Shown in pieces: positions 194 to 21,560 of a stretch of 21,560 nucleotides of DNA; position 1 is the stretch's first letter, and each line of letters begins with the position of its first letter. Made by a program: the position numbers and the translations under genes. This stretch comes from a virus (taxonomy: Duplodnaviria > Heunggongvirae > Uroviricota > Caudoviricetes). The notes under the pieces are model-generated. The model was not told the origin of the DNA. It ran no database searches and worked only from the letters and a program-made list of their open reading frames with translations. The stretch lies in IMG/VR virus record IMGVR_UViG_2579779084_000006; one strand, 5' to 3'.

Positions 194-269
194 GGCCCTT
201 TAGCTCAGTGGTGAGAGCGAGCGACTCATAATCGCCAGGTCGCTGGTTCAAATCCAGCAAGGGCCACCA
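194..269 (+). tRNA. tRNA with anticodon CAT, probably Ile2-type (lysidine, reads AUA) rather than elongator Met; CCA encoded
   Basis: Cloverleaf folded by hand: acceptor GGCCCTT/AAGGGCC, D-stem GCTC/GAGC, anticodon loop CTCATAA (anticodon CAT at 227-229), T-stem GCTGG/CCAGC with T-loop TTCAAAT, discriminator A, CCA at 267-269. The sequence closely resembles enterobacterial tRNA-Ile2 as I recall it; the isotype cannot be settled from the anticodon alone. Confidence 0.85.
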
Positions 270-276
270 TCACATA

Positions 277-353
277 CCGCCATTAGCTCATCAGGATAGA
301 GCGCCAGCCTTCGAAACTGGCTGTGTGGGGCTCGGGTCCCCGATGGCAATCCA
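277..353 (+). tRNA. tRNA-like gene, probably tRNA-Arg (anticodon TCG by canonical 7-nt loop), with non-canonical features
   Basis: D-stem GCTC/GAGC, anticodon stem CCAGC/ACTGG (one C-A mismatch), loop CTTCGAA (anticodon TCG at 311-313), T-stem TGGGG/CCCCG, encoded CCA at 351-353. The T-loop CTCGGGT departs from the TTCRANY consensus and acceptor pairs 1:72 and 2:71 are C-A mismatches. An alternative fold with a perfect 5-bp stem GCCAG/CTGGC gives a 9-nt loop. Confidence 0.55.
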
Positions 354-366
354 TTATCTGCATTAT

Positions 367-443
367 GCGTTGTTAGCTCAGCCGGACAGAGCAATTGCCT
401 TCTAAGCAATCGGTCACTGGTTCGAATCCAGTACAACGCGCCA
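367..443 (+). tRNA. tRNA-Arg (anticodon TCT, reads AGA); CCA encoded
   Basis: Acceptor GCGTTGT/ACAACGC, D-stem GCTC/GAGC, anticodon stem ATTGC/GCAAT with loop CTTCTAA (TCT at 401-403), T-stem ACTGG/CCAGT with T-loop TTCGAAT, discriminator G, CCA at 441-443. Confidence 0.85.
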
Positions 444-8135: not shown

Positions 8136-9341
8136 ATGGCGGTTGATATTAAAGATGTCGAACAGGTCGCGCAGGAGCTGCAGCAGAAGTTTGACGACTT
8201 CAAAGCAAAGAACGACAAGCGCGTTGAGGCGATTGAGCAGGAAAAAGGCAAACTTGCCGGGCAGGTGGAAACCCTGAACGGAAAACTCAGCGAGCTGGAA
8301 AACCTCAAAAGCGACCTTGAAAAAGAGCTGCTTGAGCTGAAACGTCCGGCAGGTGGTGCGCAAAATAAACTGGCCACCGAGCACAAAGAGGCGTTTGTGG
8401 GCTTTCTGCGTAAAGGCCGTGAAGACGGTCTGCGCGATCTGGAGCGCAAGGCATTGCAGGTGGGCACCGATGAAGACGGCGGCTATGCCGTGCCGGAAGC
8501 ACTGGATCGCAACATTCTCACCCTGCTGAAAGATGAAGTGGTGATGCGCCAGGAAGCCACGGTGATCACCGTTGGTGGTTCCGACTACAAAAAACTGGTG
8601 AATCTGGGCGGCACGGCTTCCGGATGGGTTGGCGAGACTGACGCGCGCTCCCAGACTGCCACCTCAAAACTGGGCCTGATTGAACCTTTCATGGGGGAAA
8701 TCTACGGTAACCCGCAGGCTACCCAGAAAATGCTGGATGATGCCTTTTTCAACGTGGAAGCCTGGATCAACAGCGAGCTGGCAACCGAATTTGCCGAACA
8801 GGAAGAAATTGCCTTTACCACCGGCGATGGCACCAAGAAGCCAAAAGGGTTCCTGGCGTATGAATCCACGGATGAAACCGATAAGGTTCGTGCGTTCGGT
8901 AAACTTCAACATATTGTATCCGGTGAAGCGACGACGGTGACCGCAGACGCCATTATCAAACTGATTTACACGCTGCGTAAGGCACACCGCACCGGCGCGA
9001 AGTTCATGATGAACAACAACAGCCTGTTTGCCATCCGTCTGCTGAAAGACAGCGAGGGTAACTATCTGTGGCGTCCGGGGCTGGAGCTGGGGCAGCCGTC
9101 CTCTCTGGCGGGTTACGGTATCGCTGAAAACGAACAGATGCCGGATATCGCCGCTGATGCGAAAGCCATTGCATTTGGTAACTTCAAACGGGGTTACACC
9201 ATCGTTGACCGTATCGGCACCCGCATTCTGCGTGACCCGTACACCAATAAACCGTTTGTCGGTTTTTATACCACCAAGCGCACCGGCGGGATGCTGGTCG
9301 ATTCGCAGGCCATCAAACTGCTGAAGATTGCAGCGGCGTAA
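8136..9341 (+). CDS. Major capsid protein (HK97-family-like) with N-terminal coiled-coil scaffolding (delta) domain, 401 aa
   Basis: ATG at 8136 with AGGAG (8124-8128). The first 70 or so residues are a charged heptad-rich helix (VEQVAQELQQKFDDFKAKNDKRVEAIEQEKGKLAGQVETLNGKLSELENLKSDLEKELLELK). No separate scaffold gene between protease and capsid. Confidence 0.93.
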   Translation: MAVDIKDVEQVAQELQQKFDDFKAKNDKRVEAIEQEKGKLAGQVETLNGKLSELENLKSDLEKELLELKRPAGGAQNKLATEHKEAFVGFLRKGREDGLRDLERKALQVGTDEDGGYAVPEALDRNILTLLKDEVVMRQEATVITVGGSDYKKLVNLGGTASGWVGETDARSQTATSKLGLIEPFMGEIYGNPQATQKMLDDAFFNVEAWINSELATEFAEQEEIAFTTGDGTKKPKGFLAYESTDETDKVRAFGKLQHIVSGEATTVTADAIIKLIYTLRKAHRTGAKFMMNNNSLFAIRLLKDSEGNYLWRPGLELGQPSSLAGYGIAENEQMPDIAADAKAIAFGNFKRGYTIVDRIGTRILRDPYTNKPFVGFYTTKRTGGMLVDSQAIKLLKIAAA

Positions 9342-9348
9342 TCATTCA

Positions 9349-9368
9349 GGGGCGCGGAACCGCGCCCC
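9349..9368 (+). terminator. GC-rich hairpin immediately after the capsid gene
   Basis: GGGGCGC (9349-9355) / GCGCCCC (9362-9368) around a 6-nt loop. Not followed by a clean U-tract, so more likely an attenuator or RNA-stability element than a full terminator. Confidence 0.35.
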
Positions 9369-9390
9369 CTGTTCTGACGGGTGAAGAATC

Positions 9391-9591
9391 ATGATCCTGA
9401 AACAAGATCTGAAATGGTCACCGGACGGTATGCGTGTTGAGGTCATTCGGGCCGGTGAGTATGACGACGGGGCGCTTCCTGCCCGGGTGCAGGAGATTGC
9501 ACTTCAGGCCGGGTTAGCAGAGCGCGGAACCAGTGCAAAAAGCAGTAAAGCGGCAAAAGAGAAAAAAGCCACGGCCAGTAAAGAGGGCTGA
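9391..9591 (+). CDS. Hypothetical small protein, 66 aa, with Lys/Ala/Ser-rich C-terminal tail
   Basis: ATG at 9391; the stop at 9589-9591 is 2 nt before the next gene's ATG at 9594, so it is tightly packed in the operon. C-terminus is SAKSSKAAKEKKATASKEG. Confidence 0.45.
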   Translation: MILKQDLKWSPDGMRVEVIRAGEYDDGALPARVQEIALQAGLAERGTSAKSSKAAKEKKATASKEG

Positions 9592-9593
9592 GT

Positions 9594-9917
9594 ATGCTTC
9601 TGACAATGGAAGAGATTAAAGCCCAACTCCGGCTGGATGAGGATTTCGATGCTGATAACCGCCATCTGCAACTGCTGGCCTGTGCGGCGCAAAAGCGGAC
9701 GGAAACGTATCTGAACCGGAAGCTCTATGCTCCGGATGAAACCATTCCGGACAGCGATCCGGACGGGCTGCACCTGCCGGATGATATTCGTCTGGGGATG
9801 CTGATGCTTATCAGCCATTTTTACGAAAATCGCTCGTCGGTTACAGACGTTGAGAAAATGGAGTTGCCAATGAGCTTTAACTGGCTTGTCGGCCCGTACA
9901 GGTATTTCCCGCAATGA
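9594..9917 (+). CDS. Head-tail connector protein (gp6-like DNA-packaging/connector family), 107 aa
   Basis: N-terminus MLLTMEEIKAQLRLDEDFDADNRHLQLLACAAQKRTETYLNRKL matches the pattern of gp6-like head-tail connector proteins. AAGAGGG RBS. First gene after the capsid module. Confidence 0.75.
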   Translation: MLLTMEEIKAQLRLDEDFDADNRHLQLLACAAQKRTETYLNRKLYAPDETIPDSDPDGLHLPDDIRLGMLMLISHFYENRSSVTDVEKMELPMSFNWLVGPYRYFPQ

Positions 9918-10324
9918 AAATTCGTCAGGCGCAGACCAGCGCAACCTACATTCTGCCGGACCCCGGTGAACTGAATAAACGCGTCCTGATCCGCCAGCGG
10001 GTGGATATGCCCGCGGATAACTTTGGCGTGGAGCCTCAATACCCGGTTACGTTCCGGACATGGGCGAAGGTTATCCAGACCAGTGCCACCACCTGGCAGG
10101 AAACCGCGCAGACCGGGGACGCCATCACCCATTACATCACCATTCGTTACCGCCGGGGGATCACCGCTGATTATGAGGTGGTCTGCGGTGACAGTGTGTA
10201 CCGGGTGAAACGTCAGCGCGATCTGAACGGAGCGCGGCGCTTTCTGCTGCTGGAGTGTACGGAGCTGGGCGAATTTACGCAGAGTCACGGAGGCAACAAT
10301 GGCGACTTCCTTTTTGCACGTTGA
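9914..10324 (+). CDS. Head closure / head-tail joining protein, 136 aa
   Basis: ATGA start-stop overlap with the connector gene. Size and position fit the head-tail adaptor family. Assignment by synteny. Confidence 0.6.
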   Translation: MKIRQAQTSATYILPDPGELNKRVLIRQRVDMPADNFGVEPQYPVTFRTWAKVIQTSATTWQETAQTGDAITHYITIRYRRGITADYEVVCGDSVYRVKRQRDLNGARRFLLLECTELGEFTQSHGGNNGDFLFAR

Positions 10325-10805
10325 TGTTCAGCAGCCCGCGGAGATGCGCTTTAACCGCGCCCGTGTCCGGCGGGCGTTTGTCACGATTGGTCAGCGTCAT
10401 ATGCGTGATGCCCGACGGCTGGTGATGCGCCGTGCGCGGTCGGCACCGGGTGAAAACCCCGGTTATCAGACCGGACGCCTGGCTCGTTCGATTGGTTACA
10501 TGGTACCCAGAGCCAGTAAAAAGCGAGCCGGTTTTATGACACGCATTGCCCCTAACCAGCGCAACGGGAAGGGGAACCGGATGATCTCTGGTGACTTCTA
10601 TCCGGCGTTTCTGTTTTTTGGTGTCCGGGGAGGAGCAAAACGTCGTCGTAGTCATCATCGTGGTGCATCTGGTGGCAGCGGCTGGCGGCTGGCTCCACGT
10701 AATAACTTTATGGTGGAAACGCTTGAAAAGAACCGCAGCTGGACACGCTATTTTCTGGCGCGGGAATTACGTAAATCACTGAAGCCGGAGCGACGACGCA
10801 GATGA
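10299..10805 (+). CDS. Virion morphogenesis / neck protein (HK97 gp10-like), 168 aa
   Basis: ATG at 10299 with GGAGG (10286-10290), overlapping the upstream gene by 26 nt. Very basic product with an Arg-rich C-terminus. Functional call by position. Confidence 0.5.
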   Translation: MATSFLHVDVQQPAEMRFNRARVRRAFVTIGQRHMRDARRLVMRRARSAPGENPGYQTGRLARSIGYMVPRASKKRAGFMTRIAPNQRNGKGNRMISGDFYPAFLFFGVRGGAKRRRSHHRGASGGSGWRLAPRNNFMVETLEKNRSWTRYFLARELRKSLKPERRRR

Positions 10806-11362
10806 AACTGACGCCTGTTATTGCTGCGCTGCGTGCCCGCTGCCCGTATTTTGAAAACCGGGTGGCAGGCGCGGCCCAGTTCAAAAATCTGCCGGAGGTC
10901 GGAAAGCTGAGACTCCCGGCGGCGTATGTGGTACCGGGGGATGACTCTCCGGGAGAAAACAAAAGCCAGACCGACTACTGGCAGGAGCTGAAAGAGGGCT
11001 TCTCCGTGGTTGTCATACTGAGTAACGGGCGTGATGAGCGCGGTCAGTTTGCCTCGTATGATGTGGTGGACGATGTCCGGCAGATGCTCTTTAAGGCCCT
11101 GCTGGGCTGGAACCCGGAAGCGTGCGGTAACCCGATTACCTATGACGGCGGCACGCTGCTGGATCTGAATCGTCATGAGCTGATTTATCAGTTCGATTTT
11201 TCGGTCATCAGTGAGCTGACCGAAGACGATACCCGCCAGCAGGATGACCTGAACAGTCTGGATGAACTGCAAACGCTGGCGATTGATGTTGATTATCTCG
11301 AGCCCGGTAACGGACCTGACGGCGATATCGAACATCACACCGAAATAACCCTTCCTTCCTGA
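10802..11362 (+). CDS. Tail-proximal structural protein (Mu gp37-like), 186 aa
   Basis: ATGA overlap with the upstream gene. Occupies the slot before the sheath gene that Mu-like tail modules fill with gp37-type proteins. Family call from synteny. Confidence 0.45.
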   Translation: MKLTPVIAALRARCPYFENRVAGAAQFKNLPEVGKLRLPAAYVVPGDDSPGENKSQTDYWQELKEGFSVVVILSNGRDERGQFASYDVVDDVRQMLFKALLGWNPEACGNPITYDGGTLLDLNRHELIYQFDFSVISELTEDDTRQQDDLNSLDELQTLAIDVDYLEPGNGPDGDIEHHTEITLPS

Positions 11363-11370
11363 GGATCCTC

Positions 11371-11541
11371 ATGTTTGTCAAACCTGTTAAAGGGCGGTCA
11401 GTTCCTGATCCTGCCCGCGGCGACCTTTTGCCCGCCGAAGGGCGAAATGTTGATGAGAACAACTACTGGCTGCGCCGTGAAGCAGCGGGTGATATCCGGC
11501 GCGTGAATAAAAAGGTGAATACCGATGACGATAAGCTTTAA
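11371..11541 (+). CDS. Small protein (56 aa) upstream of the sheath gene (Mu gp38-like position)
   Basis: ATG at 11371 with GAGGA (11361-11365). Translation MFVKPVKGRSVPDPARGDLLPAEGRNVDENNYWLRREAAGDIRRVNKKVNTDDDKL. Its 3' end overlaps the sheath start (11525) in another frame. Not in the ORF track (under 60 aa). Confidence 0.4.
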   Translation: MFVKPVKGRSVPDPARGDLLPAEGRNVDENNYWLRREAAGDIRRVNKKVNTDDDKL

Positions 11542-13021
11542 CACCATTCCGTCGAATACGCTGGTTCCGTTGTTTTATGCGGAAATGGATAACCAGGCGG
11601 CGAATACTGCACAGGACAGCGGAGCATCGCTGCTGATTGGTCATGCCAATAACGGTGCAGAGATTGTTGCCAACAGTCTGGTGCTGATGCCGTCGGCAGA
11701 CTATGCACGCCAGATTTGTGGTGTGGGAAGTCAGCTGGCGCGTATGGTCGAGGCTTATCGCCAGACCGACCCGTTTGGTGGGCTGTATGTGATTGCCGTT
11801 CCTGAATCCACGGGCGCGGCGGCAACGGTTACGCTGACGGTGACCGGGGCGGCAACCGAAACCGGCACGGTGAATGTGTATGTGGGACGTACCCGCGTGC
11901 AGGCACCGGTGACCAATGGCGATAACGTCACGATGATTGCCAGCAGTATCCAGGATGCCATCAATGCCGTTCCGACTCTGCCGTTTACAGCTTCATCTTC
12001 GGCTGGTGTTGTCACGCTGACCGCGCGTCATAAGGGGCTTTGCGGGAATGAAATTCCTGTCAGCCTCAATTACTACGGCTTCGGTGGGGGCGAAGTGCTG
12101 CCAGCGGGCGTACAGATTGCCGTGGCGACGGGGACCGCCGGAACGGGCGCTCCGGTTCTCACCGGCGCGGTGGCTGCAATGGCGGATGAGCCGTTTGATT
12201 ATATCGGTCTGCCGTTCAACGACACGGCCTCCGTTAACACGCTGGTGACCGAGATGAACGATACCAGCGGTCGCTGGAGCTATGCGCGTCAGCTGTATGG
12301 TCATGTGTATACGGCAAAGACCGGCACACTGTCAGAACTGGTGAACGCAGGTGACCAGTTTAACCAGCAGCACATCACCCTGGCGGGGTACGAAAAAGAA
12401 ACCCAGACGCCTGCCGACGAGCTGGCAGCCAGCCGTACCGCCCGCGCGGCAGTGTTTATCCGCAACGATCCGGCACGTCCCACGCAGACCGGTGAGCTGG
12501 TGGGTATGCTGCCTGCGCCGAAGGGGAAACGGTTCACGATGACCGAGCAGCAGACCCTGCTGTCTCATGGCGTGGCAACGGCGTATGTCGAAAGCGGGGT
12601 GCTGCGCATTCAGCGTGATGTCACCACGTACAGGAAAAACGCTTACGGGGTTGCGGATAACAGCTACCTCGACAGCGAGACGCTGCATACCAGCGCGTAT
12701 GTACTGCGCAAACTGAAATCCGTCATTACCAGTAAGTACGGGCGTCACAAGCTTGCCAGTGACGGTACCCGCTTTGGTCCCGGTCAGGCGATTGTCACCC
12801 CGGCGGTGATCAAAGGGGAACTGCTGGCAACCTACCGTCAGCTCGAGCGTGCGGGGATCGTGGAAAACTACGAACTGTTTAAGCAGTACCTGGTTGTGGA
12901 GCGTGATGCCAGCGATCCGAACCGCCTGAACACGCTGTTCCCGCCTGACTATGTTAACCAGTTGCGTGTCTTTGCCGTGGTTAACCAGTTCCGTCTTCAG
13001 TATTCAGAGGAGTCTGCATAA
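11525..13021 (+). CDS. Contractile tail sheath protein (Mu L-like), 498 aa
   Basis: About 500-aa ORF immediately before a 118-aa tube gene, a frameshifted chaperone pair and the tape measure, which is the canonical myovirus order. Size matches Mu-type sheath proteins. Confidence 0.82.
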   Translation: MTISFNTIPSNTLVPLFYAEMDNQAANTAQDSGASLLIGHANNGAEIVANSLVLMPSADYARQICGVGSQLARMVEAYRQTDPFGGLYVIAVPESTGAAATVTLTVTGAATETGTVNVYVGRTRVQAPVTNGDNVTMIASSIQDAINAVPTLPFTASSSAGVVTLTARHKGLCGNEIPVSLNYYGFGGGEVLPAGVQIAVATGTAGTGAPVLTGAVAAMADEPFDYIGLPFNDTASVNTLVTEMNDTSGRWSYARQLYGHVYTAKTGTLSELVNAGDQFNQQHITLAGYEKETQTPADELAASRTARAAVFIRNDPARPTQTGELVGMLPAPKGKRFTMTEQQTLLSHGVATAYVESGVLRIQRDVTTYRKNAYGVADNSYLDSETLHTSAYVLRKLKSVITSKYGRHKLASDGTRFGPGQAIVTPAVIKGELLATYRQLERAGIVENYELFKQYLVVERDASDPNRLNTLFPPDYVNQLRVFAVVNQFRLQYSEESA

Positions 13022-13377
13022 TGGCCCGTATCGGGGGAACCTGTTATTTCAAAATTGACGGTCAGCAGCTATCGCTGACCGGCGGCATTGAGGTGCCCAT
13101 GAACAGGACGGTCAATGATGACATCATCGGCCTGGACGGTTCAGTGGACCGCAAGGAAACTCACCGTGCGCCTTATGTCAAAGGGACCTTCAAGGTGCCG
13201 AAGAATTTTCCGGTGAGCAAAATCACCTCGTCTGATGAGATGACCATCACTGCCGAGTTGGCGAACGGTCAGGTCTATGTACTGTCGTCTGCCTGGCTGC
13301 ACGGCGAAGCGAACCATAATGCCGAAGAAGGCACGGTTGATCTTGAGTTCCACGGTGAAGAAGGGGATTACCAGTAA
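13021..13377 (+). CDS. Tail tube protein (Mu M-like), 118 aa
   Basis: TAATG overlap with the sheath stop. Size and position typical of the tube protein. Confidence 0.8.
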   Translation: MARIGGTCYFKIDGQQLSLTGGIEVPMNRTVNDDIIGLDGSVDRKETHRAPYVKGTFKVPKNFPVSKITSSDEMTITAELANGQVYVLSSAWLHGEANHNAEEGTVDLEFHGEEGDYQ

Positions 13378-13646
13378 TGAAAGAGCTTGAGTTAAAGAAA
13401 CCGATTACTGCTCATGGCGAGACACTCTCCGTACTGGAGTTTGATGAGCCCACCGGGAAGGATGTCCGCGAGCTGGGGTATCCCTACCAGATGAATCAGG
13501 ATGAGTCCGTCAGACTTCTGGCGCATGTGGTGTCGAAATACATTGTGCGGCTGGCGAAAGTGCCGCAAAGCTCTGTCGACCAGATGTCTCCGGCAGACCT
13601 GAATGCAGCGGCGTGGCTTGTGGCTGGTTTTTTCCTCCAGGCCTGA
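13377..13646 (+). CDS. Tail assembly chaperone, short form, 89 aa
   Basis: TAATG overlap with the tube gene. Lies immediately before the tape measure. Contains a slippery heptamer near its 3' end (see next feature). Confidence 0.7.
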   Translation: MKELELKKPITAHGETLSVLEFDEPTGKDVRELGYPYQMNQDESVRLLAHVVSKYIVRLAKVPQSSVDQMSPADLNAAAWLVAGFFLQA

Positions 13647-13795
13647 CGGCTGAATACCTCACTGATCGCTTCTTTGACTGCGCCAGCTACTGGCGCATTA
13701 ATCCCTTCGAATTGCTGAATATGTCGATCAGTGAAATTCCCTTGCTGGTCAGTCAGGCAAACAGGATAGAGCAGGAGAAACGCACACATGGCTGA
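13377..13795 (+). CDS. Tail assembly chaperone, long form by programmed -1 frameshift at T_TTT_TTC (13628-13634)
   Basis: The zero-frame codons GGT TTT TTC place the heptamer TTTTTTC at 13628-13634. The -1 frame is open from there to TGA at 13793-13795 (FFPPGLTAEYLTDRFF...EQEKRTHG), ending inside the start of the tape measure gene. Same arrangement as lambda G/GT and Mu gp41/gp42. Confidence 0.55.
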
Positions 13796-15623
13796 ATTTG
13801 AGCTTAAGGCGTTGATCACCGGTGTCGACAGGCTTTCTCCCGCGCTGTCGAAAATGCAAAAGAAAATCCGGGGATTTAAACGCCAGGCGGAAGAAGCGTC
13901 ACAGGGTGGGCTGGCGCTTGGTGGCGGACTGGCAGCGGGTCTGACGCTTTCCCTGAAATCTTATGCCGATCAGGAAAACGCCGCCACCGGGCTGAAAGTC
14001 GCCATGATGGATGCGAACGGCGAGATTGGAAAGCGCTTTCAGGACATCAATAAACTGGCTATTGGCCTGGGTAACCAGCTACCCGGTACAACGGCTGATT
14101 TCCAGAACATGATGCAGATGCTGGTGCGTCAGGGGATCCCGGCAGAAAACATTCTTGGCGGTGTGGGTAAAGCGACAGCTTATCTTGCGGTACAACTGAA
14201 AAAAACACCGGAAGCGGCTGCCGAGTTTGCCGCAAAGATGCAGGATGCTACCGGAACGGCGTCAGAAGACATGATGGGGCTGTTCGACACTATCCAGAAG
14301 GCGTTTTATCTGGGCGTTGACGATACCAACATGTTGTCCTTCTTCACTAAAACCAGCTCTGTTCTGAAGATGGTGAACAAGGACGGTCTTCAGGCTGCAC
14401 AGAGCCTTGCCCCCATCAGCGTCATGATGGATCAGATGGGGATGAACGGGGAGTCGGCAGGTAACGCCCTGCGAAAAGTTATCCAGTCCGGATTAAGCGT
14501 TAAGAAAATCAGGGACGTCAATAAAGTCATGGCCCGCCAGAAACTCGGAGTGCAGCTCGATTTTACTGACGGCAAAGGGAGTTTTGGCGGTCTTGATAAC
14601 ATGTTCAGGCAACTGGCAAAGCTGCGAAAACTGACCGACGTTAAGCGAACAGGTGTACTTAAGGCAATATTTGGTGATGATGCCGAAACCCTTCAGGTGG
14701 TCAATGCCCTGATCGATAAAGGAAAGGATGGTTACGATCAGATCCAGCAGAAGATGAATAAACAGGCCAGCCTGAATAAACGTGTTCAGGCACAGCTTGG
14801 TACGCTGTCCAACCTGTGGGAGGCAATGACAGGGACCGCAACTAACGGCCTTGCGGCTATTGGCGGCGCATTTTCTGGTGACGCCAAAAATATCACGCAA
14901 TGGCTGGGGGAGTTGGGGGAAAAATTCACGAAGTTTGCGGATCAAAATCCCCGGGTTATTCGCGGCGTCGTCGGGCTTGCTGCCGGTCTTGCGATTCTGA
15001 AACTGGGATTGATGGGCGTGGGCAGTGCCATCAGTATCGTCAGCAGGATCATGTCGATGACGCCGATTGGCATGATTGCGACGGCGATTGCTCTGGCTGC
15101 GGGATTAATTATCACTAACTGGGATGTTGTCGGACCTTATTTTAAGAAGCTCTGGGAAACCATTGGTCCTTATTTTGAGGCTGGCTGGGAACTTCTGAAG
15201 AAAGTTTTTGCCTGGTCGCCGCTGGGAATGGTGATCAATAACTGGGGACCGGTTGTTAAGTGGTTTCAGGATATGTGGGACAAGCTGAAGCCCATTATTG
15301 AGTGGTTTACCGACAGTTCCGGTGACACGGTCGATGCCATTAACTCTGCGCAGTGGGGCGTGGGTGCTTATGATGCTTATGGGACGGGAATACCGGCGCG
15401 GGGATACACACCTTATCCGGCGGTAGATCCGGCTCAGTCAAACAACGCCTCCGGTGCCACAGGCCCGAATCCCTTCATGATTAACAAAGCTTCTGCGCCA
15501 AAAGTTGATGGTGAGATCAAGGTCTCTTTTGTGAACTCGCCTCCGGGTATGCGGGTTATGGAAACGCGATCCAGCGGTTTTGATGTCAGCCATGATGTTG
15601 GTTATACGCGCTTTTGCAGGTAA
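13788..15623 (+). CDS. Tail tape measure protein, 611 aa
   Basis: Long ORF after the chaperone pair. Predicted alpha-helical N-terminal half, internal hydrophobic segment (GLAAGLAILKLGLMGVGSAISIV...IATAIALAAGLII) and Trp-rich repeats, typical of tape measure proteins. Confidence 0.9.
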   Translation: MAEFELKALITGVDRLSPALSKMQKKIRGFKRQAEEASQGGLALGGGLAAGLTLSLKSYADQENAATGLKVAMMDANGEIGKRFQDINKLAIGLGNQLPGTTADFQNMMQMLVRQGIPAENILGGVGKATAYLAVQLKKTPEAAAEFAAKMQDATGTASEDMMGLFDTIQKAFYLGVDDTNMLSFFTKTSSVLKMVNKDGLQAAQSLAPISVMMDQMGMNGESAGNALRKVIQSGLSVKKIRDVNKVMARQKLGVQLDFTDGKGSFGGLDNMFRQLAKLRKLTDVKRTGVLKAIFGDDAETLQVVNALIDKGKDGYDQIQQKMNKQASLNKRVQAQLGTLSNLWEAMTGTATNGLAAIGGAFSGDAKNITQWLGELGEKFTKFADQNPRVIRGVVGLAAGLAILKLGLMGVGSAISIVSRIMSMTPIGMIATAIALAAGLIITNWDVVGPYFKKLWETIGPYFEAGWELLKKVFAWSPLGMVINNWGPVVKWFQDMWDKLKPIIEWFTDSSGDTVDAINSAQWGVGAYDAYGTGIPARGYTPYPAVDPAQSNNASGATGPNPFMINKASAPKVDGEIKVSFVNSPPGMRVMETRSSGFDVSHDVGYTRFCR

Positions 15624-19061: not shown

Positions 19062-20130
19062 ATTTCAGCGCCCGACGCTGGCAGAAAATATCAGTATGCT
19101 CCGTAACGATTTATTCGCCAGGCTGGACGTCAGTGACCCACTCCGGCGCATGGATGAAGACGTGCGGGCAAAGGTGTATGCGGCGGCGCTGCATACGGTT
19201 TACGGTTACATCGATTATCTGGCAATGAACATACTGCCTGACCGGTGTGATGAATCCTGGCTGGCGCGACATGCTGCGATGAAACGGTGTCCGCGCAAGG
19301 GGGCCACGGCTGCCAGCGGGTATATGCGCTGGGAAGATGTCAGCGATGACCTGAAGGTGACCGCCGGGAGTGTTATTCAGCGCGATGACCTGGTTCAGTA
19401 CACGGCAACTGCCGATGCAACCAGCGCCGGTGGTGTCCTGCGCGTGCCGATCGCCTGCTCAACTGCAGGTGCGGTCGGTAATGCTGACGACGGTACGGCA
19501 TTAATCCTGGTCACGCCGGTGAATGGTCTGCCGTCGTCCGGTGTGGCTGATACCCTGACCGGCGGATTCGATACTGAAGATCTGGAAACGTGGCGCGCCC
19601 GCGTCATTGAGCGGTATTACTGGACGCCTCAGGGCGGGGCTGACGGGGATTATGTCGTCTGGGCTAAAGAAGTGCCTGGTATTACGCGCGCATGGACATA
19701 CCGTCACTGGAGAGGAATAGGAACGGTAGGGGTGATGGTGGCGACAAACGATCCGGAACATCCGGCTCCGGATGAAAGCGTCATTAATGCAGTCAGAGAG
19801 CACATTCTTCCTCTGACACCGGTTGCCGGAAGCGGATTGTATGTATTCGGTGCCACAGAAAAAGTCATCCCGATGACGATTGCATTATCGAAAGACACAC
19901 CGCAGATCAGGACTGCAATAAAAGCAGAGCTGAATGCACTGATGTTACGGGATGGTGTGCCAGAGGGGCGTATGTATCTGTCCAGAATCAGTGAGGCCAT
20001 CAGTTTGTCTGCTGGTGAAGTGGCCCACCGGTTAATCGTCCCTTCATCGGATATTGACCTGGGGGAGACCGAGCTTCCGGTGCTCGGCGAGATCACCTGG
20101 CAGGCTTATGACCCGGCAAGGAGTAAATAA
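19048..20130 (+). CDS. Baseplate J-like protein (Mu gp47-like), 360 aa
   Basis: 14-nt overlap with the upstream gene. Size and position typical of baseplate wedge J-family proteins. Confidence 0.82.
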   Translation: MADSEFQRPTLAENISMLRNDLFARLDVSDPLRRMDEDVRAKVYAAALHTVYGYIDYLAMNILPDRCDESWLARHAAMKRCPRKGATAASGYMRWEDVSDDLKVTAGSVIQRDDLVQYTATADATSAGGVLRVPIACSTAGAVGNADDGTALILVTPVNGLPSSGVADTLTGGFDTEDLETWRARVIERYYWTPQGGADGDYVVWAKEVPGITRAWTYRHWRGIGTVGVMVATNDPEHPAPDESVINAVREHILPLTPVAGSGLYVFGATEKVIPMTIALSKDTPQIRTAIKAELNALMLRDGVPEGRMYLSRISEAISLSAGEVAHRLIVPSSDIDLGETELPVLGEITWQAYDPARSK

Positions 20131-21089
20131 TGGATTCGTTACAGGATGATTATACAAAGCTGCTGTACGGACTGATGCCGCCGGGGCCTGCATGGAGCGA
20201 TACCGACGGCGTGCTTGATGGTCTGGCACCATCGCTTGTACGTGTTCATCAGCGGGCTGATGAACTGATGGCTGAAATCGATCCTGGTCAGTCAACAGAG
20301 CTGATTGAACGTTATGAAGAATTGTATGGTTTACCTGACACCTGCTCTCCTGTTGGAGCCCAGACATTACGCCAGCGTCAGCAACGGCTGGAAGCAAAAG
20401 CCAATGTGGCTGGTGGCATAAATGAGCAGTTCTTCCTGGAGCAGCTTGAGGCGCTGGGATATACCGGCGTGACGATCGAACAGTTCCAGCACCTGGATGC
20501 AAGCCCCGATCCGGAATGGGGTGATCGCTGGCGTTATTTCTGGCGTGTGACGTTGCCGGTGGATGCCGGTGCTCAGTGGCAGACATGTTCGGACACCTGT
20601 AACACACCGATCCGGACGTGGGGTGATACGGTTGCGGAGTGCGTGATTAATAAATTATGTCCGTCGCATACTGTTGTCCTTTTTGCATATCCGGATGAGT
20701 CTGGTGAAGGGCAACAAGCCGCCCTGACTATAAACAGCCTCTCCTTTCAGGCCGGACACAAGACGACTGAGCCATTAGCGATTAATCATACAGGTGTTCA
20801 TTTTGCGGTTGTTCCGGCACTGACAGGTAAGCCGCTGACAATTAACCGGATTAACTTTTATGCCGCCCGTCCGATGGCAGAACCACTGGTACTCAGCAGG
20901 GCGCAATTGCACTCAGGTCTGCCGACAACGGACCCCATGACCATGAACAGCGCACAGTTGCAGACGGGATACAGGACCCGCTCCCCCGTACCGGTTAACA
21001 GTATGCAGTTGCAGACAGCCAGCAGAACCCGTGAACCGTTATTGATTAATCACCCGGGACTGCATTTTGCTGTGGTCACGTCCGAATGA
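20130..21089 (+). CDS. Tail protein (Mu gp48 / YmfQ-like family) with repeat-containing C-terminal extension, 319 aa
   Basis: TAATG overlap with the J-like gene. N-terminus MDSLQDDYTKLLYGLMPPGPAWSDTDGVLDGLAPSL resembles gp48/YmfQ-type proteins that follow J in Mu-like clusters. The C-terminal 110 or so residues are degenerate repeats. Confidence 0.72.
   Translation: MDSLQDDYTKLLYGLMPPGPAWSDTDGVLDGLAPSLVRVHQRADELMAEIDPGQSTELIERYEELYGLPDTCSPVGAQTLRQRQQRLEAKANVAGGINEQFFLEQLEALGYTGVTIEQFQHLDASPDPEWGDRWRYFWRVTLPVDAGAQWQTCSDTCNTPIRTWGDTVAECVINKLCPSHTVVLFAYPDESGEGQQAALTINSLSFQAGHKTTEPLAINHTGVHFAVVPALTGKPLTINRINFYAARPMAEPLVLSRAQLHSGLPTTDPMTMNSAQLQTGYRTRSPVPVNSMQLQTASRTREPLLINHPGLHFAVVTSE
20769..21077 (+). 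repeat. Intragenic degenerate direct repeats in the 3' part of the gp48-like gene
   Basis: DNA units at about 20769-20813 and 21033-21077 are roughly 70 percent identical by eye, encoding EPLAINHTGVHFAVV and EPLLINHPGLHFAVV. A second motif pair, NSAQLQTGYRTR and NSMQLQTASRTR, lies at about 20944-21030. Confidence 0.5.
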
Positions 21090-21112
21090 CATAAAATAAA
21101 AGGAGAGCCGCT

Positions 21113-21560
21113 TTGAATATTATTAAACTCGAAAGTTTTCGACAAATTCCGGCGAATGAGGGATTGTGCGAGAACTATTATTCAACAAATATTATTTCAG
21201 CACTGAACGAAAACGGTGTCACGCTTATCAATGATATGTCCGGTTCTGTAACATCCGTCTGTCGTGGCACTCAGGCCGTAAATACTGTAGAAAGAACGGG
21301 GCTGATTTTTACGACACCCTCATATGTCACACTGTACAGCACACTTCCGGACTTAAAAGCCTCAGCTGTACAGCTGGGATTTCGTCTGACATTAAGTGCG
21401 GGAAAGAAATATTCATCTTCGCCATCCCACATCAGGATTAATGGCTATTCATTTACAACCCCGTATCCTGATGAAGCAGCCAGTTATTACTATGAAATTT
21501 TCGCAACGCGAAACGAAAACGGCTATGTCTCAGCCAGTCTGTACTGCAACCGCTCATTAG
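21113..21560 (+). CDS. Unknown protein, 5' portion (open to window end), at the expected tail-fibre position; AT-rich
   Basis: Frame open from TTG 21113 (AGGAG at 21101-21105, 7-nt spacing) to the window end; the first in-frame ATG is near 21233. Translation LNIIKLESFRQIPANEGLCENYYSTNIISALNENGVTLINDMSGSV... has no motif I recognise. Base composition is visibly more AT-rich than the rest of the window. Confidence 0.4.
   Translation, partial: MNIIKLESFRQIPANEGLCENYYSTNIISALNENGVTLINDMSGSVTSVCRGTQAVNTVERTGLIFTTPSYVTLYSTLPDLKASAVQLGFRLTLSAGKKYSSSPSHIRINGYSFTTPYPDEAASYYYEIFATRNENGYVSASLYCNRSL

What the first reader, a model, noticed from the sequence alone, without database searches (positions are those of the whole stretch)
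21090..21560. Abrupt shift to AT-rich sequence and an unrecognisable ORF at the tail-fibre position
Right after the gp48-like stop the sequence becomes markedly AT-rich and an ORF with a good SD but TTG start (or a later ATG) runs to the window end. The product has no tail-fibre N-terminal signature I recognise. A compositional break at the end of the baseplate module is the signature of a horizontally exchanged receptor-binding cassette, or of a foreign cargo gene inserted at the fibre locus.
Basis: seen in the sequence. Interest (0 to 1): 0.55.

Follow-up and report, generated by a model that had tools for sequence, protein, structure and literature searches.

The report
Extra lectin-like tail protein cassette
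The AT-rich ORF is not the phage's tail fibre but an uncharacterised lectin-fold protein that always travels with a 17-residue repeat tail, here fused to the baseplate protein gp48, and it most likely gives this E. coli prophage a second, swappable host-recognition device.

Summary
Bases 21090-21560 have GC 0.427, the lowest 0.2% of same-size windows (window mean 0.542). An SD plus TTG at 21113 opens an ORF that runs off the window. In identical E. coli loci it is 349 aa.

This ORF ("ORF-A") is not the fibre. A canonical tail fibre (369 aa, MHRIDT... N-terminus, 90% DNA identity to phiP27 L54) and its Tfa chaperone follow it.

Compared with phiP27, a clean ~1.49-kb insertion starts at 20700, inside gp48, not at 21090. 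It adds seven 17-20-aa repeats (consensus (E/D)PLxINRxxLQSxxxxx) to the gp48 C-terminus, then ORF-A.

Across 34 loci, ORF-A homologues are always accompanied by this repeat array, except in one degraded locus. The array sits on three different anchor families: Mu gp48, lambda-Stf phage_tail_N and the P2-type fibre N-terminus. Searching for the repeats alone found 11 real arrays, all next to an ORF-A homologue.

The AlphaFold2 model of ORF-A (pLDDT 90) shows two ConA-like lectin/glucanase beta-sandwiches. It resembles virion proteins of some siphophages. dN/dS is about 0.2.

Best reading: a portable two-part accessory receptor-binding module, so this phage would carry two host-recognition devices. 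Attachment and binding are inferred, not shown. It is a new variant of a known kind.

The parts
20130..20699 (+). gp48/YmfQ baseplate wedge core (aa 1-190), the anchor domain
   Evidence: Pfam Phage_Mu_Gp48 matches aa 13-187 at E 7e-25. phrog_203 baseplate wedge matches at E 1e-73. It is 92% identical to phiP27 L53 over aa 1-195. It aligns to Mu gp48 in PDB 9ki1. DNA homology to phiP27 ends at 20699.
20700..21089 (+). C-terminal extension of the same ORF (aa 191-319 plus stop). After a short linker come seven repeats of 17-20 aa at 20718-20768, 20769-20828, 20829-20879, 20880-20930, 20931-20981, 20982-21032 and 21033-21086. Repeats 2 and 7 are the 'cap' type (PLxINHxGxHFAVV).
   Evidence: The extension is absent from every gp48 homologue among 50,697 phage records and from about 110 of 119 gp48 clusters. 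The same repeats end the anchor proteins of all related loci. pN/pS is about 0.3. AF2 pLDDT is below 50 for aa 189-319 when modelled alone. No Pfam or PDB sequence match was found.
21100..21105 (+). Shine-Dalgarno AAGGAG of ORF-A
   Evidence: Read directly from the sequence. It lies 7 nt upstream of the TTG.
21113..21560 (+). ORF-A, first 149 of 349 codons, TTG start, running off the window. It is a two-domain ConA-like lectin/glucanase-fold protein (phrog_8291).

Best explanation
The window ends in a two-part accessory receptor-binding cassette inserted between the baseplate wedge gene and the canonical tail-fibre gene of a phiP27/SfV-like E. coli prophage (HK97-type head, Mu-type tail).

Part 1 is a tether. 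It is an array of seven 17-20-residue repeats, consensus (E/D)PLxINRxxLQSxxxxx, with a distinct 'cap' variant ...GLHFAVV. It is fused in frame to residue 190 of wedge protein gp48.

Part 2 is ORF-A, a 349-aa globular protein made of two ConA-like lectin/glucanase beta-sandwiches. It is translated from a conserved TTG 23 nt after the gp48 stop.

Proposed mechanism, all inferred: ORF-A docks non-covalently on the repeat tail, which is unfolded on its own. It would then be displayed at the baseplate periphery, at least one per wedge and so at least six per virion. There it would bind a cell-surface glycan such as LPS, O-antigen or capsule.

The gp48 core keeps its fibre-docking function for the canonical trimeric fibre encoded next, so the phage would carry two independent host-recognition devices.

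Because the tether travels with its partner, the pair can be grafted onto any virion protein with a free C-terminus. That explains why it occurs on gp48, on lambda-Stf-type N-termini and on P2-type fibre N-termini.

Shown here: the insertion and its breakpoints, the linkage of repeats and ORF-A, the fold, purifying selection, and embedding in the late operon.

Inferred: physical docking, presence in the virion, and glycan or receptor binding.
For: 1. Precise insertion. phiP27 homology stops at window 20699, which is gp48 codon 190. It resumes about 3-10 nt before the fibre ATG at 90% identity. The insertion is about 1.49 kb.

2. Linkage. 34 loci carrying ORF-A homologues were examined. In 31 the gene immediately upstream ends in the repeat array. 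In L017 and L019 the array is on gp48 two genes upstream. Only the degraded L005 lacks a clear array.

3. Reverse test. A two-repeat DNA pattern found 8 IMG/VR contigs, all already retrieved through ORF-A. It also found 3 real arrays in metagenomes, each with an adjacent ORF-A homologue. The other 12 metagenome hits were out-of-frame noise.

4. Three anchor families by Pfam: Phage_Mu_Gp48 (at least 4 lineages), phage_tail_N, and Phage_tail_fib. P0092 has a gp48 core that diverges from the window's (49% identity overall) but near-identical repeats.

5. In lambdoid locus L009 the repeats plus ORF-A sit where the Stf distal domain and Tfa normally are. No Tfa is called downstream.

7. Full-length structural matches (TM 0.6-0.7) to a 'virion structural protein' of Achromobacter phage AchV4 and its relatives. 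AchV4 virion proteins of about 35-37 kDa from the tail cluster were detected by LC-MS/MS (PMC7996906).

8. Late-operon embedding. The gaps are 23 nt and 30 nt, and no promoter-like or terminator-like site lies in them.

9. Both parts are under purifying selection. ORF-A dN/dS is 0.16-0.24. The gp48 extension has pN/pS of about 0.3.

10. The gp48 extension is predicted to be disordered alone (pLDDT below 50). So is loop 149-164, which corresponds to the Mu gp48 fibre-docking loop. In Mu there is one gp48 per wedge, and the trimeric fibre grips that loop (PMC11915804).
Against: - There is no direct evidence that ORF-A is in the virion, binds the repeats, or binds any glycan. A complex could not be modelled with the tools available.
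- No isolated phage among 50,697 records carries ORF-A, so no virion proteome covers it.
- Some carrier prophages are degraded: frameshifts in B7A and deletions in AST205.
- Conservation is the same in both ORF-A domains (entropy 1.20 versus 1.23). A classic receptor-binding protein has a conserved anchor end and a hypervariable tip.
- The same repeat array is attached to a monomeric anchor (gp48) and to presumably trimeric anchors (Stf N-termini). The stoichiometry and the fold of the array are therefore unresolved.
- The lambdoid array in L009 lacks the 'cap' repeat.
- The jelly-roll fold is also that of polysaccharide lyases and glucanases, so an enzymatic role is not excluded.
Confidence: 0.6

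Rival explanations
1. ORF-A is a dedicated assembly chaperone for the repeat array. It would play the role Tfa/gp38/gpU plays for classical fibres, is needed for folding, and is not necessarily retained in the virion. The repeat array itself, or something else, would be the functional element.
For: ORF-A is encoded directly downstream of the protein it would act on, as fibre chaperones are. In L009 it occupies the Tfa position. The repeat array is predicted to be unfolded on its own. Linkage is strict in both directions. Sequence variability is even along ORF-A.
Against: There is no Caudo_TAP or other chaperone family hit. At 349 aa, with two lectin/CBM-like beta-sandwiches, it is unlike known fibre chaperones. 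Its structural analogues are annotated as virion structural proteins, and AchV4 tail-cluster proteins of that size were detected in virions. A 50-120-aa repeat tail with no distal domain would be an odd end-product to need a 349-aa chaperone. In L017 and L019 ORF-A is separated from the array by two genes.
Confidence: 0.15
2. ORF-A is a tethered glycan-degrading enzyme, a jelly-roll polysaccharide lyase or glucanase-type depolymerase, rather than a non-catalytic lectin. It would clear capsule or O-antigen at the baseplate.
Confidence: 0.15
3. ORF-A is a cargo gene (moron) that is unrelated to the virion, such as a lysogenic-conversion, exclusion or defence gene sitting at the variable fibre locus.
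For: The first half of ORF-A has low GC (0.42). It lies near the prophage end, where morons accumulate. It is annotated as a hypothetical protein everywhere.
Against: No promoter or terminator flanks it, and the intergenic gaps are 23 nt and 30 nt inside the late operon. There is no PADLOC hit. It has no signal peptide or transmembrane segment evident in the sequence (not formally tested). It is strictly linked to a repeat array carried on structural proteins of three different tail types. It structurally resembles phage virion proteins.
Confidence: 0.05
4. The region is decaying prophage debris. The gp48 extension would be read-through into junk, as RefSeq's 'pseudogene, missing C-terminus' flag implies, and ORF-A a remnant.
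For: PGAP flags the gp48 gene as incomplete in every complete genome inspected. Some carrier prophages are clearly degraded.
Against: The 319-aa ORF is intact in the window and in a 90%-identity cluster of 179 database sequences. The extension has pN/pS of about 0.3 and a conserved repeat architecture in four gp48 lineages. ORF-A dN/dS is about 0.2 across lineages down to about 40% identity. The PGAP flag is explained by the length mismatch with the roughly 195-aa YmfQ family.
Confidence: 0.03

Closest known systems
T2/T6/S16-type gp38 adhesin on the tip of long tail fibre gp37 (a two-gene fibre with a separately encoded distal adhesin). Cited from established knowledge, not tested here.
   Same: The receptor-recognising unit is a separate polypeptide, encoded just downstream of the protein it attaches to, and would be held non-covalently at that protein's C-terminal end. 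The pair is exchanged as a module.
   Different: There is no sequence or fold relationship. ORF-A is a pair of ConA-like sandwiches, not an attachment domain plus glycine-rich PGII sandwich, and no fibre or adhesin family was hit. The tether is a 17-aa repeat array, not a trimeric fibre tip. Here it is fused to a monomeric baseplate wedge protein.
Mu gp48 (BW3) fibre-docking loop with the gp49 trimer, and the analogous T6SS TssG loops with TssK trimers
   Same: A single-copy wedge protein presents a flexible peptide that a receptor-binding protein grips (PMC11915804). The window's gp48 core is a homologue of Mu gp48 (PDB 9ki1), and its equivalent loop is also low-confidence in AF2.
   Different: The extra docking element here is a C-terminal repeat array added to the core. 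It is absent from Mu, phiP27, SfV, ST64B and all other sequenced phages. The partner is globular and lectin-like, not a fibre N-terminus.
Lambda Stf/Tfa and Mu gp49/gp50 side or tail fibre plus chaperone cassettes
   Same: They occupy the same genomic slot at the distal end of the tail operon. They show the same mosaic, horizontally exchanged behaviour. Some anchors of this cassette are bona fide Stf N-termini (Pfam phage_tail_N and Phage_fiber_2).
   Different: The usual distal shaft, receptor-binding tip and Caudo_TAP chaperone are replaced by the repeat array plus ORF-A (L009). In the window the classical fibre and Tfa pair is present in addition.
Virion structural proteins of about 35-37 kDa in the tail clusters of Achromobacter phage AchV4, Serratia JS26, Providencia Kokobel1 and related siphophages
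   Same: They share the full-length two-domain architecture (Foldseek TM 0.6-0.7, E about 1e-13). AchV4 tail-cluster proteins of this size are present in virions by LC-MS/MS.
   Different: Identity is only 13-16%. The function of those proteins is also unknown. Whether they use a repeat tether was not examined. Which AchV4 gene corresponds to the BFVD entry was not resolved.
Baseplate-anchored carbohydrate-binding receptor-binding proteins of Gram-positive siphophages (BppU/BppL/BppA type; mycobacteriophage Douge gp23)
   Different: The hosts, baseplate proteins and attachment chemistry are all different. There is no sequence relationship.

Membership tests
   ORF-A has no Pfam hit and no fibre PHROG. 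The next gene, ORF-B, has this domain: phrog_6859 at E 1.9e-170 and 90% DNA identity to phiP27 L54.
   The AF2 model is two compact beta-sandwiches. The gene downstream of ORF-A is a fibre, not a Caudo_TAP chaperone.
phrog_8291 (PHROGs family of unknown function) | Full-length profile match | tested here: met
   E 8.5e-247, residues 1-349 matching profile positions 1-349 of 349.
Concanavalin A-like lectin/glucanase superfamily | Jelly-roll beta-sandwich fold | tested here: met
Concanavalin A-like lectin/glucanase superfamily | Sequence-level membership (Pfam Laminin_G_3 or relatives above threshold) | tested here: inconclusive
   The window-type protein has no hit. Three of 24 family members hit Laminin_G_3 weakly, best E 1.6e-4.
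Concanavalin A-like lectin/glucanase superfamily | Carbohydrate binding or cleavage | not testable with these tools
   This needs glycan-array, LPS-binding or enzyme assays.
Phage_Mu_Gp48 / YmfQ baseplate wedge protein (for the upstream ORF 20130-21089) | Pfam PF10076 domain, and position directly after the gp47/Baseplate_J gene | tested here: met
   PF10076 matches at E 7e-25 over aa 13-187. The gene follows baseplate J/gp47. It aligns to Mu gp48 in PDB 9ki1.
Phage_Mu_Gp48 / YmfQ baseplate wedge protein (for the upstream ORF 20130-21089) | Single-domain protein of about 175-200 aa | tested here: not met
   The protein is 319 aa. About 110 of 119 homologue clusters are 184-211 aa. Extended forms are a small minority (P0043, P0044, P0045 and P0092).
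Tail fibre assembly chaperones (Caudo_TAP / gp38 / gpU) | Profile match to a chaperone family | tested here: not met
   ORF-A has no such Pfam or PHROG hit. The real Tfa is two genes downstream (PF02413, E 1e-21).
Anti-phage defence or moron cargo | Match to a known defence family, or an autonomous promoter and terminator | tested here: not met
   PADLOC gives 0 families. No promoter-like or terminator-like site lies in the flanking gaps.
Triple beta-spiral fibre shaft (adenovirus fibre / reovirus sigma1 type). Considered for the repeat array because the motif xPLxVxxxxLxx was recalled from memory. | Sequence-profile similarity to solved triple beta-spiral shafts, and an obligate trimeric context | tested here: not met
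   A repeat profile searched against all PDB sequences retrieved no adenovirus or reovirus fibre at E up to 10. The array is fused to gp48, which is present once per wedge in Mu. The fold itself could not be tested.

The most novel reading that the evidence does not exclude
The repeat array is not a shaft but a string of docking peptides. Each 17-residue unit, or each 'cap' unit, would capture one ORF-A molecule. A single-copy wedge protein, or each chain of a fibre stub, would then display a multivalent beads-on-a-string array of lectin domains.

This would be a non-fibrous, non-trimeric receptor-binding architecture whose valency is tuned by repeat copy number (3 to 7 copies observed). It would also be a self-contained plug-and-socket pair that can be grafted onto any virion protein.
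Probability: 0.15. Interest if true: 0.8.

Novelty: new variant of a known kind. Interest (0 to 1): 0.55.

Why it matters
If the reading is right, it matters in five ways:

- **A second route to receptor-binding proteins on Mu-type tails.** Simple Mu-type contractile tails could gain a second receptor-binding protein through a tether fused directly to wedge protein gp48. They would not need a second fibre or a more complex baseplate.
- **New family definitions.** The work defines a compact, portable tether-plus-lectin pair that is missing from Pfam, NCBIfam and PDB. ORF-A is labelled 'hypothetical protein' in every record inspected. The fused gp48 is flagged as a pseudogene in the RefSeq complete genomes inspected.
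- **Better host-range prediction.** It would improve host-range prediction for E. coli, Shigella, E. albertii and Raoultella prophages. About 1.2% of complete E. coli genomes carry ORF-A, and many of the carriers have ETEC strain names.
- **Annotation fix.** It would correct a systematic annotation error in RefSeq.
- **Engineering.** The pair could serve as a small module for retargeting phages or tailocins, because the same cassette already works on three unrelated anchors.

The finding is still comparative and structural inference. No virion, binding or host-range data exist.

Tried and rejected
- They were rerun with P0001, which is 98% identical.
- **No phage isolate.** tblastn of ORF-A against 50,697 phage records found nothing, so no isolated phage could be used for context.
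- **Extension search.** A search with the gp48 extension alone returned one partial protein. The full-length query was needed to find the extended forms.
- **Repeat array against PDB and Pfam.** Only spurious PEX14 hits and a one-motif gp11 hit at E 1.1 appeared.
- **Triple beta-spiral idea.** My recollection that the motif resembles adenovirus triple beta-spiral shaft repeats got no support and is not claimed.
- **Tandem repeat finder.** It found no DNA-level tandem array at 20500-21560. The repeats are diverged at the DNA level.
- **The search for related loci.** It could not use the short repeat alignment.
- **Wasted scan.** One IMG/VR scan was wasted on a pattern one N too long, so it was out of frame, and its 3 hits are meaningless. 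It was corrected.
- **GTDB scan.** The species-representative scan yielded one locus, from E. albertii, because the family is concentrated within E. coli.
- **Literature.** Searches for YmfQ, the RefSeq accession, ConA-like prophage receptor-binding proteins and Casjensviridae gave no description of this module.
- **Rejected hypotheses.** A defence system was rejected, an autonomous moron was rejected, and a pseudogene remnant was rejected.

Full report
**Context**

The window is the late region of a phiP27/SfV-like E. coli prophage. It holds:
- three tRNA genes;
- lysis genes and an HNH endonuclease;
- P27-type terminase genes;
- an HK97-type portal, protease and capsid module;
- a Mu-type contractile tail, with sheath, tube, tape measure and gp43-48 homologues.

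The 961 nt at the window end (20600-21560) are 100% identical to four complete E. coli chromosomes. They match 85 of 5,426 complete genomes in all. I used those chromosomes to read the sequence beyond the window end.

**1. The observation**

It is real.
- Bases 21090-21560 have GC 0.427.
- The window mean for 471-nt windows is 0.542, with sd 0.036.
- Only 0.19% of such windows are as low, and all the lowest ones are at this end.

The gp48-like ORF (20130-21089, 319 aa) is followed by TAA at 21098-21100. AAGGAG lies at 21100-21105, and TTG at 21113 opens a frame that runs off the window.

The TTG start is well supported:
- RefSeq uses it.
- The residues right after it (N2, E7, F9, Q11, I12) are invariant or nearly so in the family.
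- 31 of 34 related loci have TTG at the same position.

In identical loci the ORF, here called ORF-A, is 349 aa. It has no Pfam, NCBIfam or PADLOC match. It is a full-length member of the function-unknown phrog_8291.

Two caveats apply. Only the first half of ORF-A is AT-rich (GC 0.42 against 0.52 for the second half). The fibre and Tfa genes beyond it are also below the module mean, at 0.46-0.47 against 0.548.

**2. It is not the fibre**

Thirty nucleotides after ORF-A comes a 369-aa protein, ORF-B, that begins MHRIDTPTAVKDKFGPGKNGF. ORF-B matches tail-fibre PHROGs (phrog_6859, E 1.9e-170). It is followed by a Caudo_TAP tail-fibre assembly protein.

DNA comparison with phiP27 shows where the extra sequence lies:
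- Homology runs through the baseplate genes up to window 20699. That is gp48 codon 190, just after the residues ...YPDE.
- It resumes at 90% identity a few bases before the fibre ATG.
- In phiP27 the 196-aa gp48 homologue (L53) overlaps the fibre gene L54 directly.

The window lineage therefore carries a clean insertion of about 1.49 kb.

**3. The gp48 extension**

Pfam Phage_Mu_Gp48 covers only aa 13-187. No gp48 homologue in 50,697 phage records extends past about aa 196. About 110 of 119 homologue clusters are 184-211 aa.

After a short linker, the extension is seven repeats of 17-20 aa with consensus (E/D)PLxINRxxLQSxxxxx. Repeats 2 and 7 are a distinct 'cap' form, PLxINHxGxHFAVV.

This architecture recurs in four gp48 lineages: the window type, P0092/L026/L035, L017/L019, and L011/L028-30. 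Copy number varies by exact units. P0092 has a gp48 core that diverges from the window's (49% identity overall) but near-identical repeats, so the array moves by recombination.

The extension has pN/pS of about 0.3, which means it is coding. RefSeq's label 'YmfQ family protein, incomplete, missing C-terminus' is an annotation artefact of the unexpected length.

The repeat has no Pfam or PDB sequence match. Modelled alone by AF2, residues 189-319 have pLDDT below 50.

**4. Linkage of repeats and ORF-A**

I collected ORF-A homologues from four sources:
- the 5.8-billion-protein collection: 27 clusters, almost all E. coli, with Shigella sonnei members and one Raoultella cluster;
- an exhaustive profile search of 1.84 billion representatives: only 17 hits;
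- IMG/VR: 28 loci;
- GTDB species representatives: one locus, from E. albertii.

Of the 34 loci examined:
- 31 have a gene immediately upstream that ends in the repeat array.
- In L017 and L019 the array is on gp48 two genes upstream, with the fibre and Tfa in between.
- Only the degraded lambdoid locus L005 lacks a clear array. It keeps a 64-aa ORF containing LPLVIKHAVVSVG.

By Pfam the anchors fall into three families:
- Phage_Mu_Gp48;
- phage_tail_N, with or without Phage_fiber_2 (lambda Stf type);
- Phage_tail_fib (P2-type fibre N-terminus).

In lambdoid L009 the order is J, Lom, Stf stub with repeats, then ORF-A. No Tfa is called downstream, so the pair replaces the usual distal fibre and chaperone.

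The reverse test searched for a two-repeat DNA pattern.
- It found 8 IMG/VR contigs, all already retrieved through ORF-A.
- It found 15 metagenome stretches. Three are real arrays, each with an adjacent ORF-A homologue. Twelve are out-of-frame noise, close to the number expected by chance.

**5. What ORF-A looks like**

The AF2 model was built on 24 family sequences, with P0001 (98% identical) as the target. It is confident: pLDDT 90.1 and pTM 0.89. It shows two beta-sandwich domains.

- Foldseek against PDB gives legume lectins and toxin binding domains.
- Three of 24 family members weakly hit Pfam Laminin_G_3.
- Against predicted viral structures, the whole protein aligns at TM 0.6-0.7 and E about 1e-13. 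The matches are a 'virion structural protein' of Achromobacter phage AchV4 and uncharacterised proteins of Serratia JS26, Providencia Kokobel1 and relatives.
- In AchV4, several 35-37-kDa tail-cluster proteins were detected in virions by LC-MS/MS (PMC7996906).

ORF-A is under purifying selection, with dN/dS 0.16-0.24 across pairs. Variability is spread evenly over both domains.

**6. Mechanism**

In Mu there is one gp48 per wedge, and the trimeric fibre N-terminus grips a gp48 loop at residues 133-155 (PMC11915804; PDB 9ki1). The window's gp48 core is 92% identical to phiP27 L53. The first 550 nt of the ORF-B fibre gene are 90% identical to those of phiP27 L54. Canonical fibre docking should therefore be intact.

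The added repeat tail is disordered alone, like the docking loop. Its invariable companion is a globular protein with a lectin fold. ORF-A is embedded in the late operon, with 23-nt and 30-nt gaps and no promoter or terminator in them.

The most economical reading is that ORF-A docks on the repeat tail and is displayed at the baseplate rim as a second, glycan-directed receptor-binding protein. The tether and its partner would form a portable pair. Docking, virion presence and ligand are all inferred. Multichain modelling was not available.

The stoichiometry is open. The same array sits on a single-copy wedge protein and on presumably trimeric fibre stubs.

**7. Rivals**

- **Dedicated chaperone.** This fits the gene order and the strict linkage. 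It does not fit the size, the fold or the virion-protein analogues.
- **Tethered depolymerase.** This is a sub-variant that the fold alone cannot exclude.
- **Cargo or moron, or defence gene.** These readings are contradicted.
- **Pseudogene remnant.** This reading is contradicted.

**8. Novelty**

ORF-A is labelled 'hypothetical protein' in every source checked. No paper found describes it or the repeat, although the paper library is incomplete. It occurs in 64 of 5,426 complete E. coli genomes and in no isolated phage.

The kind of thing is familiar: a horizontally exchanged receptor-binding cassette at the end of the tail operon. Four features are not described elsewhere as far as I could find:
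- the repeat tether;
- its fusion to wedge protein gp48;
- its portability across three anchor families;
- the two-domain ConA-like partner.

I rate it a new variant of a known kind, of moderate interest.

Noticed in passing
window 20130-21089, and the RefSeq records behind L001-L003: In the three complete genomes inspected, RefSeq/PGAP annotates the intact 319-aa gp48-repeat fusion as a pseudogene ('YmfQ family protein, incomplete, missing C-terminus'). It truncates the feature at about codon 195, so the extension is missing from RefSeq protein sets. GenBank, JGI and Logan gene calls do contain the 319-aa protein, in a 90%-identity cluster of 179 sequences.
   Followed up: yes
window 21113, and ORF-A starts in L003-L040: The TTG start codon of ORF-A is conserved in 31 of 34 loci (7 of about 10 distinct lineages), despite a strong Shine-Dalgarno. 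This may be a way of tuning the amount of ORF-A relative to the anchor protein.
   Followed up: partly
L003 12514-13563 (window 21113 onward): There is a compositional mosaic inside ORF-A. The first half has GC 0.42 and GC3 0.39. The second half has GC 0.52 and GC3 0.54. The E. albertii homologue (L040) matches the window type closely in its N-terminal residues but diverges at its C-terminus, which suggests recombination within the gene.
   Followed up: partly
L017 2736-6223 and L019 3599-7056: These loci have an alternative gene order: gp48 with repeats, then fibre, then Tfa, then ORF-A (96-97% identical to the window type). ORF-A therefore need not be adjacent to its presumed tether.
   Followed up: partly
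window 194-443: Three tandem tRNA genes sit upstream of the lysis module: CAT anticodon (called Met by ARAGORN, annotated Ile in RefSeq relatives), Arg-TCG and Arg-TCT. This is typical of phiP27 and Stx-phage late regions.
   Followed up: no
window 13377-13795: Two overlapping ORFs lie between the tube and tape-measure genes: 13377-13646 (89 aa) and 13613-13795 (60 aa). This is the usual place for a programmed-frameshift tail assembly chaperone pair.
   Followed up: no
L001 (E. coli AST205) 9940-14570; L003 (B7A) 8410-10462: Some carrier prophages are degraded. In AST205 a terminase-small remnant is joined directly to a gp46 remnant, and an IS5-family element truncates ORF-A to 345 aa. In B7A, RefSeq marks the gp44-like and gp46-like genes as frameshifted.
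   Followed up: no
E. coli genome hits: Many carriers have strain names that are, from my own knowledge, those of enterotoxigenic isolates (B7A, ETEC6, E2528-C1, ATCC 43886). Four ORF-A matches lie on plasmid records, for example NZ_OZ547049.1 at 249 kb, which may be phage-plasmids.
   Followed up: no
L028-L030, upstream ORF (for example L028 4788-5978): One gp48 lineage carries an extra Ig-like/CarboxypepD_reg-like domain and an acidic linker between the gp48 core and the repeat array (396-413 aa in total).
   Followed up: partly
PDB entry 23sg chain N: The only PDB sequence touched by the repeat profile is an 893-aa phage 'gp11' with a single ...QDPLVINQLQ motif at E 1.1. This is not significant. 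It would be worth a look if that structure is a fibre or an adaptor.
   Followed up: no
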